This document shows, piece by piece, positions 1-12,000 of a stretch of DNA of 64,000 nt. Each line of letters opens with the position of its first letter. Position 1 is the first letter of the stretch. The DNA is taken from assembly GCF_054482595.1 (NCBI RefSeq), contig NZ_CM137008.1; one strand, given 5' to 3'. A program made the position numbers.

Positions 1-3000
1 TATTTCGCGTATATAAATAGTTATCTACACAACGTCAATAAGGGCATATTCTTCAAAGATAACGTCCATTTCTGGTGAATAGCTTCCTTCTGCCTGGAAA
101 AAACGACGGTGTTCATTACGCCAATATTCAAGACTGAGGTCACCTTCACCTTCCTTACGGGCAAGCTCCGCGGTGACATCAGAAAAGCGCAGTAAATGCA
201 GGCCAATCACTCTGATAACACATACAGGCTCACCACGGCTATTTTCTACAATCTTATACTCACCAATCATCGGAAATGAGTTGTCTTCAATACATCCTGC
301 CAGCGAACCACAGGAAGCTGTTTTAACACCAGTCGCAATCAACGTTGCGAGGTGATCGGCCAACGCTGCAGAATCGCCAAAAGTACAAAAGGAAGCATGG
401 GGATATTTTTGTAAGATTTTTTCTTTTATGGTCATGAGAATATTTTCGCGATTACGGAAAAACAAATCACATCTTAATTACTGTTGGTAACCATCAGCAA
501 GAGTATCATTGGTTTTTCGATACTGAATCTTTTTTATCCGAAGCAGGTCACATTTATGGCCTGATAAATACCTTTGTTAAAACTCACTTTTGTGTATTTC
601 TCTCAAATAATCCCCTGGAAATTATGCCGGGAGATTATAAAGTTCAGGATCATTCATTAGCAAACCATTCCCGCCCCACTCCCTGGGGCTTAAATCTCTT
701 ACTATTCACCGTTGCAGGCGTTTCAAATGCGCATCAACCTGCCACACTCCCCCACACCAGTTGCCCTTTATGGAACGTTGCGGTTCTCGGCGAGATACGC
801 GCCACCGCCTCGGCGGAACAGGAGGCGTCCACCAGCACAAAGCTGGCGTCATCCTGCGCTTTTGGCCATACACGCTCGCCTTTTTCATTCAGCGGCAATA
901 CATCGCCAGTGGCTAGAAACAGCGAACGGGAGAGGTTCTGTTCGTTAGGACGAATATAGAGCTGCGCGTAGAGATTGGCTTTTTCCAGCATGTCGCCCAG
1001 ACCATAAGGCGACCAGTGGTCGATAACGCTGTCAGTGCCAGTCATCACTTTTACGCCTTTGTCGTGTAACTGTTTGAGCGGCATATGCAGCGTACCAATC
1101 GGCACCGTCGAGGCGATAGAAATTTGCTGCACCACCATCCGGTTAGCCAGTTCATCTACCTGTTGCTCGTTGAGTGTTGCCAGCGCAAAGGCGTGACTGA
1201 TGGTCAGCTTGCCCTTCAGCTGTGGCGTTTTCTCTACCGTTTCAACCATATAATTGATGGCTGCCACGCCCGACGGAGTGGTTTCGTGCAGGTGAATATC
1301 GACGCCTTTGTCGTAGTCCAGCGCAATCTGGAACATGGTATCGAGGGATTTTTCCATCGCGCCATCGACACTGGTCGGGTCCAGCCCGCCGACGTAATGC
1401 GCCCCCGCCTGCATCGCTTCGCGCATTAAGGGTTCCGATTTCGACAGCAGCAAACCGTGCTGCGGGAAGGCGACGATTTCACACTCGAAGCCCGCCTGAC
1501 GTCGCGCCAGCACCGCCTGCAAATTTTGCAGATTTTTCAGGCCGGAAACCGGTTCGATATTGCAGTGGCTGCGGGCAATGGTGGTGCCTTTCGACTGCAA
1601 TAAATCAATCAGTTTTTCTGCCCGCTCCTGAGTGTACGGTTGCAGCTCCGGCAGCATTTTCTGCTCGAGTTTGATCATGTCCTGGATGGTGGTGCCTGCC
1701 GGGCGATTGAGCGAGCGCCACGGCCCGCCGTAAAAGGTTTTGTCGAGATGAATATGCATGTCGCGGGTGGTGGGCAGCATCAGCTTATCGCCAGCGTCAT
1801 AGTGCGGCAGCGTGGCATCCGGGTGCTGCTTATTCTCGCGCAGCGCGACAATTTTGCCGTTCTGAATCTCCACGGTCTGGCGCGCCGTGCGGGTCTGCAC
1901 CGCCACGCCATTTTCGTAGTCAAATCCAGTTTCCAGCAGCACGTTGTCGAGATAGTAATGCGGGTCAGTGATTTTCATGGTGTTGTTCGCTTCGCAGTTT
2001 GTGGTGCCAGAGACCGCCGCATGGGCGAGCGGCACAGAGGTACCAAACAGCGCGGCGGCGGTGACCATCTTACCGCTCTGGCTCAGAAATTCACGGCGGC
2101 TATTGCTTTCTTTCATCTTACGTCCTTACGTTTTAATAATATGGGTGCCCGTTTCACCGCGCAGCGCCGCAGGCAGGCATTCCGGCGTGGTGATAATCAC
2201 TTCTTTGCCGCCCTGTTCCAGGAACGTCAGGCTGGCGATGATTTTTGGCAACATGCTGCCAGGCGGAAAATGCCCTTCCTGCATATAGCGGGTCATGGTG
2301 GCAATATCCACGCGATCCAGCGCCTGCTGCTGCGGTTTACCAAAATGAATACACACTTTTTCCACGCCGGTGGTGATCACCAGAATGTCGGCGTGAATTT
2401 CACGGGCCAGCAGCGCGGTAGAGAGATCTTTGTCGATAACCGCGTCCACGCTTTGGTAATCTCCCGCGTCAGTACGCACCACAGGAATTCCGCCGCCGCC
2501 CGCGCCAATCACCACAAAGCCTTGTTGGATCAGCGCCTTAATGGCAGGTGCTTCGACAATACGTTTCGGTTCCGGCGAGGCGACCACGCGGCGATAGCCC
2601 CGTCCGGCATCTTCAACAAAACGCCAGTCAGGGTTTGCCTTTTGTAGTTCGTCACGCTGGCTGTCACTAAAGAATGCGCCGATGGGCTTGGTGGGATGGG
2701 CAAATCCCGGATCGTTTTTATCCACTTCCACCTGAGTCACCACGGTGACGGCTTTTTTCTCGCCGTGACGCGCCAGCCGGTTGTTCAGCGCCTGTTGGAT
2801 CAGATAGCCGATGCCGCCTTGCGTATCCGCCACACAGTTCGCCAGGGGCGTTAAGGGCAGCCCTTCGCGCTCGTGGGCAATCTCCGCGCGGCGTAAATCC
2901 AGCCCGACCTGCGGCCCGTTGCCGTGGGTCAGCACAATGTCGTAATCGGAAGCCAGCATTTCCAGCACCGTATCAGCGACGGCTTTCACCGCCTCCGCCT

Positions 3001-9000: not shown

Positions 9001-12000
9001 GCGTTATTTTTTCCGCAAAGCTACCGACCTGCTGAATGATTTTCACGCCATCAAACGCAGTATCGATACTATTTCGCAGGGCATAGAAGCACGTGTGCGC
9101 ATTTGTATTAATCAGCTGCTTTATACGCCCAAACACACCGCACGCTTGTTACAGGTGCTGAAAAAGCAGTTTCCTACCTGCCAGATTACCGTCACCACCG
9201 AAGTGTATAACGGCGTCTGGGATGCGATTATTAATAATCAGGCCAATATCGCCATCGGCGCACCCGATACACTACTGGACGGCGGCGGTATTGATTACAC
9301 TGAAATTGGCGCGATTCGCTGGGCTTTTGCTATCGCCCCGGATCACCCGTTAGCCTTTGTGCCGGAACCCATCGCCGAAAGCCAACTGCGTCTCTACCCT
9401 AATATTATGGTGGAGGACACCGCGCATACGATTAATAAAAAAGTGGGCTGGTTGCTGCACGGGCAGGAGTCAATTCTGGTGCCAGATTTCAACACCAAAT
9501 GTCAGTGCCAGATTTTAGGTGAAGGAATTGGTTTTTTGCCGGATTACATGGTCCGTGAGGCGATGACGCAATCCCTGCTGGTTACCCGACAAATCCATAA
9601 TCCGCGCCAGGATTCGCGCATGTTACTGGCGACTCAGCATTCTGCTACGGGTCAGGTGACGCAGTGGATTAAAAAACAATTTGCGCCAAATGGCATATTA
9701 ACGGGGATCTATCAGGATTTACTGCATCGGGAGAATTAATCGCTGCCAACCTCCCGATGCGCTGTGAATAGCGGTTTACATCAACCACCTGCTTTCATTA
9801 CCCATTCAGAGATAAATTTATTACCCGGTACTGGCGGAGAGTACAAATAGCCCTGCAAAAAGTGAACGCCTTTACCGATCATTAAATCCGCCTGCTCCTG
9901 GGTTTCTACCCCTTCCGCCACGATACTCAGACCAGGCTTACGCGCTAGTTCGACAATATTGTCCACAATATGACCGGAGATTTCGTCGACACTCGCCATT
10001 TGCACAAATGACTTATCGATCTTAATAAAATCGACCGGGAACGCCTGCAAGTAACGATAGGTCGCATAACCCGTACCAAAGTCATCCAGCGCAAAGGTAA
10101 TGTTGTGCTGATGAAGGCTGTCAAATATCGCTCTGGCTTCTGGCGTTACCGGAATAGGGTTACGTTCCGTTAGCTCGAGAACCAGCTTGATTTTATCGTT
10201 ACCTAATTTCTTAACCAGGTTCAGACACTCTTTTTCAAATCCCGCTGCCAAAAAACAACCCGCCGAGACGTTGATGCCAATATGGAAATTGTCCGGCAGC
10301 AAATGTTTTACCGGCATCAGAATATCCGCAGTCTGTTTCATCAGTTGGCGGGTCATTATGACAATAAGACCGGATGACTCCGCCAGAGGAATAAACTGAT
10401 CCGGTGGGATAATTCCCGTTTGTGGATGTTCCCAGCGGACAAGTACCTCACAGCCCGTCAGTACCCCAGTCTGCGCGCAGAAAACCGGTTGGATCCACGG
10501 TTTGAATTCGTGGTTTTCCAACGCCAGACTGATGGCTTCAGGCGTGACGATATGGTGACAACGGTTATCAGGGATATAAAAATTATTTTTATTTCCCGTG
10601 CCACTGATGACTTGCGGATGATATTGAAAAAAGATATCCCGCCAGAAGGTAATATCACTCTGGATGCCTAGTTTTTCATACAGCTGCTTCTTTTGATGTG
10701 AAATTGTCTTTGCACTGCGATTTCTGTACTGTGAGATTTCTGTAACCGACATTCCCTCCATTAGCAGCTTGAGTAAAAGCCGTTCTTTTTCGGACACGAT
10801 ACCAGGCAACGTCAAATTCACCGTTGCCCCGAACTCTTCCAAAAAAACACTCAAATCATGCGAAGCCATCGAACACACCTTGATTAAATCTTGTGCGCCA
10901 GCTAAATCTGCGAGTCTTCACTCTGACTGATAAAGCTGGCTGCAAGAAAATGACACAGAGAGCCGAATTATCTCCCGTTCGGCTCTCTCTCCTTTTACTC
11001 ATTATTCAGATCAGAATTGCCACTTAATGCCAACCATTGCAGAGGTGTCATTATATCCCCTATCGGCAACCTGAACGCCCACATTCCCCCAGACATTCAG
11101 GTTGGCATTTAGCTGTCCTTCCACCCCGGTTTTTATCTCAGCAATATTTCGGGCTCCATCCTGAGTGACGGACACGCCATCCATACTGGTGCTGAAATCC
11201 TTACTGTTATGCAGCCAGTTCACTTCTACAAACGGCTGGAACTCGCGGGATTTACCGTCATCCATTTTATGGTGGCTCTTCAGCCAGGTTTTTACGCCAA
11301 GTCGGGTTTGAACATTGCCATCACCGTTGCTATGAACGAGGGTTCCGTTGCTTTCGCGGTGCTTATCGGCTTTGACTCCCATCCAGGTAACCTGTGCTTG
11401 CGGCTGAACATACCATTCATTACGCGTTCCCTGGCTGCCATTAAATTCAGCTAATTTGTGTTTGTATCCAGCTTCCAGTGAAGCGGTAAATCCTTTTGAT
11501 TTATAGGATTCACTTTGTAAGTCATCCCCTTTCACTGTGTTATCAAACCAGCTGTACTGCGCCCAACTGTCGAGATACGCGCCATTACGCGACTCGTCAT
11601 CGGCATACCAGGTGGCATAGAGGCCGGTGCTATATCCGTTCACACTCGCTTTTGCACGATAACCGGTTCGCGAGGAAATGGTTTTGCTGTCGCTGTTGCC
11701 ATATCCCGCCATGACCCCAACATGCCAGCTGTCGCTGCCGTTTTGGCTCCACTGCGCGACATCGCCTCCCAGTTGCAGAACATAGCGATTGCTTTGGGTT
11801 TTCAGCTGGCCGCTGCCATCACGCCATTTATTATGACCACCTTCATGGCGCATCCACATAGTGGTTTGTTTCTGCTCACCCGTCACCATGTCGGTATAGT
11901 ACGTATTACCCAGACGCTCATGCAGACGCGTGGTGAACATTGTATTCGCTGCTGCAAGGTTCGCAATGTAGCTACCCGCCTCCGGTCGCAGGTCATTATC

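What the first reader, a model, noticed from the sequence alone, without database searches (positions are those of the whole stretch)
734..9739. yahB-yahJ cluster resembles an uncharacterised carbamoyl-phosphate-generating catabolic pathway
The tightly packed minus-strand string yahD-yahE-yahF-yahG-(REP)-yahI-yahJ, with 1-nt and 11-nt overlaps suggesting translational coupling, encodes an ankyrin-repeat protein, a DUF2877 protein, an FdrA-like CoA-ligase-fold protein, a DUF1116 protein, a carbamate kinase paralog and a Tat-exported amidohydrolase/deaminase. A divergent membrane protein (yahC) and LysR regulator (yahB) sit alongside. FdrA-like, DUF1116, DUF2877 and carbamate kinase genes also co-occur in the allantoin utilisation region (fdrA-ylbE-ylbF-arcC), so this looks like a paralogous pathway for an unknown ureide or carbamoyl compound that yields ATP. 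A periplasmic deaminase acting before cytoplasmic steps would also imply a dedicated transporter, possibly yahC.
Basis: partly seen in the sequence, partly recalled or inferred. Interest (0 to 1): 0.55.

Follow-up and report, generated by a model that had tools for sequence, protein, structure and literature searches.

The report
Second oxamate-transcarbamylase-like, ATP-yielding ureide operon
The E. coli yahB–yahJ genes are a real, selectively maintained copy of the recently solved "oxalurate to carbamoyl phosphate to ATP" module of allantoin fermentation, fitted with a periplasmic deaminase, an ankyrin protein and its own regulator; its substrate is still unknown.

Summary
Window 734-9739 holds yahJ-yahI-(REP array)-yahG-yahF-yahE-yahD on the minus strand and yahC-yahB on the plus strand. 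The stated 1-nt and 11-nt overlaps and a twin-arginine signal on YahJ are present.

The allantoin-region paralogues AllF/AllG/AllH were shown in 2024 to form oxamic transcarbamylase, and AllK is its carbamate kinase. Five yah genes are paralogues of that module:
- YahF-AllF, 39% identity
- YahG-AllG, 45%
- YahE-AllH, 25%
- YahI-AllK, 38%
- YahB-AllS, 39%

New here:
- The yah type is a separate, very conserved orthogroup. YahG is 75-79% identical in the Brevibacillus, Janthinobacterium and Azospirillum examples and 70% identical in Enterococcus faecalis, the classical oxalurate fermenter.
- Outside the Escherichia clade an orphan 516-aa membrane protein sits between yahG and yahI. E. coli has a REP array there and carries yahC instead.
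- yahE is repeatedly lost in other genera, and F-G fusions exist.
- All eight genes are under purifying selection.

The most likely function is periplasmic deamination of an amino-oxo heterocycle, followed by cytoplasmic phosphorolysis of an N-acylurea (oxalurate or a close analogue) and ATP formation by YahI. The substrate is unproven. I class it as a new member of a known kind, of moderate interest.

The parts
734..2116 (-). yahJ: Tat-exported, metal-dependent amidohydrolase of the CodA/AtzC-like deaminase branch (460 aa)
   Evidence: NCBIfam PRK06846, 713 bits against a cutoff of 447. Nearest solved structures are N-isopropylammelide isopropylaminohydrolase AtzC (6nbo, 8e-43; 2qt3, 9e-29), then cytosine deaminase. 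The HxHLDK, HLHE, SHAF and GTDS motifs align with 6nbo.
2018..2116 (-). Codons for the YahJ twin-arginine signal peptide (residues 1-33, SRREFL ... AHA|A)
   Evidence: Sequence. An RRxF[LI] motif is kept in all 76 YahJ orthologues of the related loci. The same peptide is listed as a predicted Tat substrate in PMC7549933.
2126..3076 (-). yahI: carbamate kinase family protein (316 aa)
   Evidence: PRK12352, 650 bits. The arcC equivalog TIGR00746 scores 346.7, just under its cutoff of 358.25. 38% identical to AllK/YbcF. End-to-end match to solved carbamate kinases 1e19 (1.6e-82) and 1b7b.
3126..3484 (.). Array of four tandem 92-93-nt BIME units (paired REP elements), formerly annotated as 'yahH'. 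It occupies the position where most other genera carry a 516-aa membrane protein gene.
   Evidence: No remnant of the membrane protein gene was found by tblastn.
3497..4915 (-). yahG: AllG-family (DUF1116) subunit (472 aa). Its first ~55 residues correspond to the C-terminal tail of AllF.
   Evidence: Pfam PF06545, 1.4e-88. 45% identical to AllG. 650 bits to PDB 3clq, whose sequence is 100% identical to a protein on the contig taken to be E. faecalis. YahG 12-53 aligns to AllF 513-554 with score 67, against 21±4 for shuffles.
4915..6462 (-). yahF: AllF/FdrA-family subunit (515 aa), succinyl-CoA-synthetase-alpha-like fold without a GH[AS]G motif
   Evidence: NCBIfam FdrA, 493 bits. Pfam CoA_binding + Ligase_CoA. 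39% identical to AllF. PDB 3dmy FdrA, 3e-83. No GH[AS]G motif.
6452..7315 (-). yahE: AllH-family (DUF2877) subunit (287 aa), the fastest-evolving and most dispensable member
   Evidence: Pfam PF11392, 1.9e-28. 25% identical to AllH, E 1e-10. dN/dS 0.15-0.28. Absent from the cluster in 25 of the related loci that cover this position. The AF2 model (pLDDT 90.8) has no solved structural relative.
7355..7960 (-). yahD: ankyrin-repeat protein (201 aa), first gene of the operon
   Evidence: Found directly upstream of the E/F/G genes in all related loci that cover the position. Also found in Janthinobacterium, Brevibacillus, Azospirillum (Ank+TPR) and Trichococcus.
8063..8085 (.). Conserved palindrome ATTGTTGAA-N5-TTCAACAA(A) upstream of yahD, the candidate YahB (LysR-type) operator. 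It lies within a conserved promoter region at 7961-8217.
   Evidence: The alignment of nine genera shows conserved blocks TTGCACTACCGCAC, the palindrome, GAATnAAATTTAAGCGG and GTTGCTATTCTCA. The palindrome is unique in the window, with 0 matches expected by chance.
8218..8715 (+). yahC: DUF1097 inner-membrane protein (165 aa), inserted between yahB and yahD only in the clade that lacks the 516-aa membrane protein
   Evidence: Pfam DUF1097, 1.4e-26. Complementary distribution of 18 versus 61 loci, none with both. The yahC-type loci are monophyletic on a YahF+YahG tree.
8807..9739 (+). yahB: LysR-type regulator, paralogue of AllS and PunR
   Evidence: Best NCBIfam models are AllS (268 bits, below its cutoff of 372) and PunR (239 bits). 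39% identical to AllS. dN/dS 0.01-0.03.

Best explanation
yahDEFG-yahIJ is an inducible catabolic operon that turns a ureide into ATP, ammonia and CO2. It is built around a paralogue of oxamic transcarbamylase.

Proposed steps:
1. YahJ is exported folded by Tat. In the periplasm it hydrolytically removes an amino (or alkylamino) group from an amino-oxo N-heterocycle of the cytosine/ammelide/guanine type. This step is inferred from family and location.
2. The product, or the N-acylurea that forms from it, enters the cell. In most genera entry would be through the 516-aa membrane protein encoded after yahG. E. coli has lost that gene, so entry would be through YahC or an unlinked carrier. This step is inferred.
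3. YahF-YahG form the catalytic core, with YahE and the ankyrin protein YahD as accessory partners. The core cleaves an N-acylurea with phosphate to give carbamoyl phosphate plus an amide. This step is inferred from homology to AllFGH.
4. YahI transfers the phosphate to ADP. This step is inferred from close carbamate kinase homology.
5. YahB, the AllS-like LysR regulator, activates the operon from the conserved palindrome upstream of yahD. This step is inferred.

My favoured substrate of step 3 is oxalurate itself or a very close analogue (about 45%). The reason is that the yah-type genes are the ones present in Enterococcus faecalis, where oxamate transcarbamylase induced by oxalurate and parabanic acid has been known since 1965-1986.
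For: Paralogy and family membership:
- Five-gene paralogy with allS and allFGHK.
- AllFGH purified as oxamic transcarbamylase and AllK as catabolic carbamate kinase (PMC11326118, PMC9843812).
- Pfam AllG and AllH domains in YahG and YahE.

Operon structure and selection:
- Translational-coupling overlaps.
- All genes under purifying selection, including within the clade that lost the 516-aa gene (omega 0.01-0.28).
- A conserved operator/promoter upstream of yahD from E. coli to Providencia.

F-G as the core:
- Full-length natural F-G fusions of about 1000 aa exist.
- The F/G gene boundary has shifted by about 45 residues between the all and yah types.
- Clusters exist without AllH and/or ankyrin genes.

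The yah type as a tight orthogroup:
- It collapses to one 50%-identity cluster; the next clusters are at 50% identity or less.
- YahG is 75-79% identical in the Brevibacillus, Janthinobacterium and Azospirillum examples.

E. faecalis link:
- Its G subunit is 70% identical to YahG versus 48% to AllG. Its F subunit is 53% versus 38%.
- Oxamate transcarbamylase in that organism is induced by parabanic acid and oxalurate (references cited in PMC3282769 and PMC6022934).

Feeder deaminases recur:
- Periplasmic YahJ, with the Tat motif kept in 76 of 76 orthologues.
- Cytoplasmic YahJ-type amidohydrolases in Trichococcus and Oceanobacillus.
- A guanine-deaminase-like CDA-fold enzyme next to an allantoin-permease-like NCS1 carrier in Brevibacillus, Paenibacillus and Jeotgalibaca.

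Other support:
- A membrane protein follows G in nearly every cluster.
- Sister clades place F-G next to ring-opening amidohydrolases of the AtzD/barbiturase type and the hydantoinase type.
- A ΔyahJ ExPEC mutant is mildly outcompeted in mice (competitive index 0.70, p = 0.02; PMC7549933).
Against: - No activity of any Yah protein has been measured.
- The allF, allG and allH deletion mutants abolish oxamate formation from allantoin (PMC11326118). The yah genes therefore do not substitute under those conditions, either because they are not induced or because the substrate differs.
- The cluster encodes no ring-opening enzyme. A heterocycle deaminated by YahJ would have to open spontaneously (as parabanic acid does at neutral pH; PMC5703782) or be opened by an unlinked enzyme.
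- E. coli lacks the dedicated 516-aa membrane protein.
- YahE is only 25% identical to AllH and is missing in several genera, so the three-subunit analogy is imperfect.
- The ankyrin partner has no counterpart in AllFGH.
- Whether E. faecalis has only this one AllFG-like locus could not be checked.
- YahI falls just below the arcC equivalog cutoff.
Confidence: 0.62

Rival explanations
1. The enzyme logic is the same (phosphorolytic transcarbamylase plus carbamate kinase), but the substrate is a different N-acylurea or ureide. Candidates are ring-opened triazine or pyrimidine products (carboxybiuret, biuret, allophanate, ureidomalonate) or N-carbamoylsarcosine derived from creatinine. Under this reading the yah cluster is a genuinely different pathway from oxalurate catabolism.
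For: - YahJ's nearest solved relative is AtzC, which makes cyanuric acid from an ammelide.
- The closest non-yah clade places F-G directly after an AtzD/TrzD-type ring-opening amidohydrolase (TIGR02714, 350 bits). Another clade places it next to a hydantoinase/dihydropyrimidinase-like enzyme.
- allFGHK-like genes sit beside biuret and triuret hydrolases in nitrifier genomes (PMC12625717).
- E. coli keeps both the all and yah sets under selection, which argues against pure redundancy.
- The yah genes do not rescue all mutants (PMC11326118).
Against: - The yah-type clusters contain no AtzD/barbiturase-type or hydantoinase-type ring opener.
- The E. faecalis yah-type locus has only a regulator, H-F-G and a membrane protein, which fits direct use of oxalurate as in the old physiology.
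- The Firmicute carrier is closest to allantoin permease.
Confidence: 0.28
2. In E. coli the cluster is a cryptic remnant. Loss of the dedicated membrane protein and insertion of REP elements between yahG and yahI have uncoupled the pathway from its substrate, and the genes persist without a working function.
For: - The 516-aa gene found in 61 of the 80 related loci is absent, and a 359-bp REP array sits in its place.
- The genes are still listed as uncharacterised y-genes (PMC11551758).
Against: - All eight genes are intact and under strong purifying selection within the clade that lost the membrane protein gene (omega 0.02-0.21 between E. coli and E. albertii).
- The overlapping start/stop junctions are preserved.
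- The operator and promoter blocks are conserved.
- 84% of complete E. coli genomes keep the region.
- ΔyahJ has a small in-vivo fitness cost.
Confidence: 0.07
3. YahF is, as annotated, an acyl-CoA synthetase. The cluster would then perform CoA-dependent chemistry, such as activation of an amide or acid product, rather than transcarbamylation.
For: The PGAP name is 'acyl-CoA synthetase FdrA'. Pfam finds CoA_binding and Ligase_CoA domains. The same idea was raised in 2012 for FdrA (PMC3364942).
Against: - The homologous AllF is a required subunit of purified oxamic transcarbamylase (PMC11326118).
- YahF, AllF and the E. faecalis protein all lack a GH[AS]G motif.
- No beta (ATP-grasp) subunit gene lies in the cluster.
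Confidence: 0.03

Closest known systems
AllF-AllG-AllH oxamic transcarbamylase with AllK carbamate kinase and the AllS activator (E. coli allantoin fermentation; Kim & Kim 2022, 2024, 2025)
   Same: The same three protein families (FdrA-type, PF06545, PF11392), an adjacent carbamate kinase and an AllS-like LysR regulator. Identities are 25-45%.
   Different: - Gene order is D-E(H)-F-G-I rather than F-G-H-K.
- The F/G boundary is shifted by about 45 residues.
- A conserved ankyrin gene is added.
- A Tat-exported amidohydrolase is added.
- The dedicated membrane protein families differ.
- The cluster is not linked to allantoin genes.
- It forms a separate orthogroup that is much more conserved across phyla.
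- The substrate is untested.
Oxalurate/parabanate fermentation of Enterococcus (Streptococcus) faecalis, with oxamate transcarbamylase and a third carbamate kinase (Tigier & Grisolia 1965; Vander Wauven et al. 1986)
   Same: The E. faecalis locus PucR / AllH-AllF-AllG / membrane protein is of the yah type. Its G subunit is 70% identical to YahG and matches PDB 3clq.
   Different: No gene has been assigned experimentally to the E. faecalis activity. That locus has no ankyrin gene, YahJ-type amidohydrolase or adjacent carbamate kinase.
Arginine deiminase (ArcABCD) and agmatine deiminase pathways
   Same: The logic is the same: a deiminase/deaminase step, then a catabolic transcarbamylase making carbamoyl phosphate, then a carbamate kinase making ATP, with a dedicated membrane carrier.
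   Different: The transcarbamylase here is not of the ATCase/OTCase fold. The first enzyme is periplasmic and belongs to the amidohydrolase superfamily. An antiporter role for the membrane proteins is only an analogy.
AtzC (N-isopropylammelide isopropylaminohydrolase) and CodA cytosine deaminase
   Same: YahJ shares the fold and the metal and catalytic motifs (HxH, H, H, D), including the AtzC-like HLDK lysine.
   Different: Sequence similarity is low (E 8e-43 to 1e-16). YahJ has its own NCBIfam subfamily, PRK06846. It is exported by Tat. Its substrate is unknown.

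Membership tests
AllFGH-type (non-ATCase-fold) catabolic transcarbamylase | FdrA/AllF-type subunit (CoA_binding + Ligase_CoA) | tested here: met
   NCBIfam FdrA, 492.8 bits against a cutoff of 433. Pfam domains present. 39% identical to AllF.
AllFGH-type (non-ATCase-fold) catabolic transcarbamylase | AllG (PF06545) subunit encoded next to F | tested here: met
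   PF06545, 1.4e-88. 45% identical to AllG. 1-nt overlap with yahF.
AllFGH-type (non-ATCase-fold) catabolic transcarbamylase | AllH (PF11392) subunit | tested here: met
   PF11392, 1.9e-28. 25% identical to AllH. The GLTPSxDD and GSSSGxD motifs are kept. Note that this subunit is absent in several yah-type clusters of other genera.
AllFGH-type (non-ATCase-fold) catabolic transcarbamylase | Orthology with E. coli AllFGH (same subfamily) | tested here: not met
   Paralogues only. The yah type forms its own 50%-identity cluster, and AllG is 45% identical.
AllFGH-type (non-ATCase-fold) catabolic transcarbamylase | Phosphate-dependent cleavage of oxalurate to carbamoyl phosphate + oxamate | not testable with these tools
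   This needs an enzyme assay. There is only indirect support from the E. faecalis link.
Carbamate kinase (EC 2.7.2.2) | Full-length match to carbamate kinase models and structures | tested here: met
   PRK12352, 649.7 bits against a cutoff of 266. 1e19, 1.6e-82 over residues 3-314.
Carbamate kinase (EC 2.7.2.2) | Score above the arcC equivalog (TIGR00746) cutoff | tested here: not met
   346.7 bits against a cutoff of 358.25. This is a marginal miss, so activity remains to be shown.
Tat-exported periplasmic protein | S/T-R-R-x-F-L motif, hydrophobic stretch and AxA cleavage site | tested here: met
   SRREFL ... AHA|A. The motif is conserved in 76 of 76 orthologues. Export itself was not tested here; YahJ is listed as a predicted Tat substrate in PMC7549933.
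Amidohydrolase superfamily, CodA/AtzC-like deaminases | Metal-binding HxH, His, His and Asp residues and the catalytic Glu | tested here: met
   MHIHLDK, DIHLHE, ISHAF and TGTDS align with the corresponding motifs of 6nbo. PRK06846 scores above its cutoff.
AllS (allantoin regulon activator) equivalog | Score above the NF007501 cutoff | tested here: not met
   268.4 bits against a cutoff of 372. YahB is a paralogue of AllS and PunR, not AllS itself.

The most novel reading that the evidence does not exclude
The yah type, not the all type, is the widespread and ancestral oxalurate-class transcarbamylase. On this reading it is the long-sought genetic basis of the parabanate/oxalurate fermentation described in E. 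faecalis in 1965-1986.

In Enterobacterales it would be coupled to a periplasmic AtzC-like deaminase and an orphan membrane carrier. Together they would harvest oxidised purine ring fragments (imino-parabanate, parabanate and oxalurate-like compounds formed from urate and guanine by reactive oxygen species) as a source of ATP and nitrogen. The ankyrin protein would act as a new kind of bacterial enzyme-complex subunit.
Probability: 0.22. Interest if true: 0.68.

Novelty: new member of a known kind. Interest (0 to 1): 0.45.

Why it matters
Eight E. coli y-genes would move from unknown to a testable biochemical hypothesis. A second, phylogenetically much wider branch of the newly discovered three-subunit transcarbamylase family would be defined.

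A 60-year-old orphan activity in Enterococcus would gain candidate genes. Two orphan membrane protein families and an orphan-fold subunit (AllH/YahE) would gain a functional context.

If the substrate is an oxidation product of urate or guanine, the operon would describe how gut and urinary bacteria gain ATP and nitrogen from host oxidative damage products.

Tried and rejected
- **516-aa membrane protein.** Structure prediction gave a poor model (pLDDT 47), so no fold search was attempted. It has no Pfam, NCBIfam or PDB-sequence hit, even at E = 10.
- **Link between the two membrane protein families.** hhalign between the 516-aa proteobacterial family and the ~390-aa Firmicute family found no relationship (probability 0.25%).
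- **Remnant of the lost gene.** tblastn found no remnant of the 516-aa gene in the E. coli REP spacer.
- **Promoter scan.** The consensus sigma-70 scan found nothing in the yahC-yahD spacer, and no more hits region-wide than in shuffles. This is uninformative for an activator-dependent promoter.
- **Literature.** Searches for yah gene functions, YahB targets and E. faecalis fdrA gave no functional data. The review 'Purine catabolism by enterobacteria' is not held.
- **YahC as a replacement carrier.** I considered treating the yahC versus 516-aa complementarity as strong statistical evidence that YahC replaces the carrier. I rejected this because the yahC-type loci are monophyletic, so it is one event.
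- **Scope of the genome scan.** It returned only the 80 closest loci (all Enterobacterales plus Aeromonas), so wider neighbourhood statistics rest on eight hand-picked contigs.

Full report
**Observation**

The window start is 100% identical over 12 kb to several complete E. coli chromosomes. 4551 of 5426 complete E. coli genomes carry at least 80% of that stretch.

ORF calling and RefSeq annotation agree with the finding's coordinates:
- yahJ 734-2116, minus strand
- yahI 2126-3076, minus strand
- yahG 3497-4915, minus strand
- yahF 4915-6462, minus strand
- yahE 6452-7315, minus strand
- yahD 7355-7960, minus strand
- yahC 8218-8715, plus strand
- yahB 8807-9739, plus strand

The claimed junctions are real. 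The yahF stop and yahG start share one base (TGATG), and the yahF ATG lies 11 nt inside yahE. yahI and yahJ are 9 nt apart; yahD and yahE are 39 nt apart.

The 420-nt yahG-yahI spacer holds four tandem 92-93-nt units, each a pair of REP elements, at 3126-3484.

All domain assignments were reproduced. YahJ begins MKESNSRREFLSQSGKMVTAAALFGTSVPLAHA|A, a textbook twin-arginine signal. The same peptide is listed as a predicted Tat substrate of unknown function in PMC7549933.

**Relation to the allantoin genes**

I compared the yah proteins with K-12 allS and fdrA-ylbE-ylbF-ybcF. The paralogy covers five genes:

| yah protein | all protein | Identity |
|---|---|---|
| YahF | AllF | 39% over 513 aa |
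| YahG | AllG | 45% over 415 aa |
| YahE | AllH | 25%, E 1e-10 |
| YahI | AllK | 38% |
| YahB | AllS | 39% |

YahB's best NCBIfam models are AllS and PunR, the two purine-related LysR regulators, both below their cutoffs.

Kim & Kim purified AllF-AllG-AllH as the long-orphan oxamic transcarbamylase (oxalurate + Pi -> carbamoyl phosphate + oxamate; PMC11326118). They also showed that YbcF/AllK is the catabolic carbamate kinase (PMC9843812) and that AllS and ArcA control the allF operon (PMC12535856).

None of these papers mentions the yah genes. A 2024 survey still lists yahC, E, G, H, I and J as uncharacterised (PMC11551758). Pfam has since renamed DUF1116 and DUF2877 as AllG and AllH, and YahG and YahE match them.

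**The yah type is its own, highly conserved orthogroup**

YahG homologues are 75-79% identical in the Brevibacillus, Janthinobacterium and Azospirillum examples, against 45% for the in-genome paralogue AllG.

In a library clustered at 50% identity, every full-length yah-type protein collapses into one representative (76% identity). The next clusters are at 50% or less.

The same search shows many full-length F-G fusion proteins of about 1000 aa.

The first ~55 residues of YahG correspond to the C-terminal tail of AllF. YahG 12-53 aligns with AllF 513-554 at score 67, against 21±4 for shuffles. F+G totals 987 aa in the yah set and 974 aa in the all set. Fusions and a sliding gene boundary are what is expected of two chains of one enzyme.

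**Gene neighbourhoods**

In the 80 closest genomic loci (Enterobacterales and Aeromonas) the order is yahB <- -> yahD-yahE-yahF-yahG-X-yahI-yahJ. X is a 516-aa polytopic membrane protein:
- It is present in 61 loci.
- It is 71-81% identical in Janthinobacterium and Azospirillum.
- It has no Pfam, NCBIfam or PDB match.

Eighteen loci lack X and carry yahC between yahB and yahD. These are Escherichia, Pseudocitrobacter, Kluyvera, Citrobacter amalonaticus, Klebsiella spallanzanii, Raoultella and one Enterobacter sp. No locus has both genes. These loci are monophyletic on a YahF+YahG tree, so this is one evolutionary event and not independent replication.

E. coli has the REP array exactly where X sits elsewhere, with no remnant of the gene.

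yahE is missing (yahD abuts yahF) in 25 of these loci: Enterobacter, Leclercia, Lelliottia, Silvania and Huaxiibacter, plus Aeromonas cavernicola and one Serratia. On the tree this requires more than one loss. A Jeotgalibaca cluster outside this set also lacks it.

Outside the Enterobacterales I examined eight contigs:
- **Janthinobacterium:** Ank-H-F-G-X-CK-LysR.
- **Azospirillum:** X-(Ank+TPR)-H-F-G-CK.
- **Brevibacillus:** PucR / Ank-H-F-G / allantoin-permease-like NCS1 / CK / CDA-fold deaminase.
- **Paenibacillus:** PucR / H-F-G / ~380-aa membrane protein / CK / NCS1 / CDA-fold deaminase.
- **Jeotgalibaca:** PucR / F-G / ~390-aa membrane protein / NCS1 / CDA-fold deaminase.
- **Oceanobacillus:** three YahJ-like amidohydrolases and an MFS carrier, then PucR / H-F-G / ~390-aa membrane protein / CK.
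- **Trichococcus:** PucR / two YahJ-type amidohydrolases (both above the PRK06846 cutoff, 36% identical to YahJ, without a signal peptide) / Ank+TPR / H-F-G / ~390-aa membrane protein / triple RidA fusion.
- **E. faecalis:** PucR / H-F-G / 393-aa membrane protein.

The ~390-aa family is polytopic. It is unrelated to X by profile comparison.

The CDA-fold deaminase is closest to Bacillus subtilis guanine deaminase (1.5e-31).

The recurring design is therefore an F-G core, usually with H and often with an ankyrin protein. Added to it are a membrane protein right after G, usually a carbamate kinase, and a feeder deaminase of one of two unrelated folds.

**The Enterococcus link**

YahG matches PDB 3clq at 650 bits. 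Its sequence is 100% identical to a protein on the contig I take to be E. faecalis. The E. faecalis G and F proteins are 70% and 53% identical to YahG and YahF, but only 48% and 38% identical to AllG and AllF.

Oxamate transcarbamylase was described in this organism decades ago. It is induced by parabanic acid (Tigier & Grisolia 1965) and by oxalurate, together with a third carbamate kinase (Vander Wauven et al. 1986). Both are cited in PMC3282769 and PMC6022934, and the gene was never identified.

Parabanic acid hydrolyses spontaneously to oxalurate at neutral pH and is a singlet-oxygen product of urate (PMC5703782).

If E. faecalis has only this locus, the yah type is an oxalurate enzyme. 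I could not verify that it is the only locus. This is my main reason to favour oxalurate or a near analogue.

**Evidence pointing to other substrates**

YahJ's nearest solved relatives are AtzC enzymes (8e-43, 9e-29), ahead of cytosine deaminase. YahJ shares the metal and catalytic motifs, including the AtzC-like HLDK lysine.

The nearest non-yah clade of G proteins (48% identity) sits directly after an AtzD/TrzD-type ring-opening amidohydrolase. Another clade sits beside a hydantoinase-like enzyme. Nitrifier genomes place allFGHK-like genes next to biuret and triuret hydrolases (PMC12625717).

The family as a whole therefore seems to process various ring-opened ureides, and the yah substrate need not be oxalurate.

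**Is the E. coli copy alive?**

- Nei-Gojobori estimates against E. albertii, Pseudocitrobacter, Kluyvera, Raoultella and Citrobacter give omega of 0.01-0.14 for seven genes and 0.15-0.28 for yahE. This includes comparisons within the clade that lost X.
- The region upstream of yahD keeps several blocks conserved from E. coli to Providencia. One is the palindrome ATTGTTGAA-N5-TTCAACAA at 8063-8085, typical of a LysR site. They are kept even though yahC has been inserted between regulator and operon.
- All 76 YahJ orthologues keep the twin-arginine motif.
- A ΔyahJ ExPEC mutant was slightly outcompeted in mice (competitive index 0.70, p = 0.022; PMC7549933).
- A ribosome-profiling study treats yahDEFGIJ as one operon (PMC4765031).

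A decaying remnant is therefore unlikely.

**Components that remain opaque**

- YahE was modelled with high confidence (pLDDT 90.8): an N-terminal beta-barrel plus a helical domain. It carries the invariant GLGxGLTPSxDD and GSSSGxD motifs. It has no solved structural relative.
- YahF, AllF and the E. faecalis F protein lack a GH[AS]G motif. That this is the phosphohistidine motif of succinyl-CoA synthetase alpha is my own knowledge.
- The role of the ankyrin protein is unknown.
- The 516-aa protein could not be modelled.

**Verdict**

The cluster is best described as a paralogous, more widely distributed branch of the AllFGHK carbamoyl-phosphate/ATP module with its own feeder, regulator and (lost) carrier.

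It is a new member of a known kind. The general mechanism is likely (about 0.6-0.7), and the substrate is open. Interest is moderate: the idea is now an obvious extension of published work. The Enterococcus link, the ankyrin and AllH subunits, the orphan carriers and the periplasmic AtzC-like feeder still make it a good target for experiments.

Noticed in passing
window 3126-3484 (spacer 3077-3496): Four tandem BIME units fill the yahG-yahI spacer. RefSeq annotates a 75-aa 'hypothetical protein' inside them (window 3244-3471). An EHEC ribosome-profiling paper reports a translated small ORF (X002) in this 'yahH' spacer (PMC4765031). In most other genera this position holds a 516-aa membrane protein gene.
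   Followed up: partly
window 734-9739 versus L010 (Pseudocitrobacter faecalis): Synonymous divergence is mosaic. dS is 0.2-0.3 for yahF, G, I and J but 1.3-2.3 for yahB, C, D and E. This suggests a recent recombination or transfer of the yahF-yahJ half between Escherichia and Pseudocitrobacter.
   Followed up: no
L029:11537-13087, L003:11656-13209, L005:4644-6125: An orphan 516-aa polytopic membrane protein family, 71-81% identical across Gamma-, Beta- and Alphaproteobacteria. It has no Pfam, NCBIfam or PDB hit and is always linked to yah-type genes.
   Followed up: partly
L086:11198-12379, L087:11485-12669, L088:11489-12658, L089:11440-12606, L090:11528-12673: A second orphan membrane protein family (~380-394 aa) directly follows the AllG-type gene in Firmicute clusters. 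It is unrelated to the 516-aa family (hhalign probability 0.25%).
   Followed up: partly
L042:7649-9995, L085, L067, L089: The AllH-type gene (yahE) is absent from otherwise complete yah-type clusters in Enterobacter-group genera, Aeromonas cavernicola, one Serratia and Jeotgalibaca. That is at least two or three independent losses, although AllH is reported as required for the E. coli AllFGH enzyme.
   Followed up: partly
proteins P0249, P0250, P0253, P0255, P0258, P0260, P0262, P0303, P0319: Natural single-chain AllF-AllG fusions of about 1000 aa occur in the wider family.
   Followed up: partly
L092:5614-9428 (metagenome contig): In the closest non-yah clade, an AtzD/TrzD-type ring-opening amidohydrolase (cyanuric acid hydrolase/barbiturase family) lies immediately upstream of AllF-AllG. 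This hints that some family members act on ring-opened triazines or barbiturate.
   Followed up: partly
window 25-465 (-) and upstream in L001:1-2771: Downstream of yahJ this strain has an ASCH-domain gene followed by a sugar/autoinducer-2-type ABC transporter operon. I did not compare this flank with other E. coli strains.
   Followed up: no
PDB 5d66 and 3hra: Two solved ~200-aa bacterial ankyrin proteins of unknown function match YahD over its full length (2e-40 and 4e-30). They may be orthologues useful for modelling the complex.
   Followed up: no
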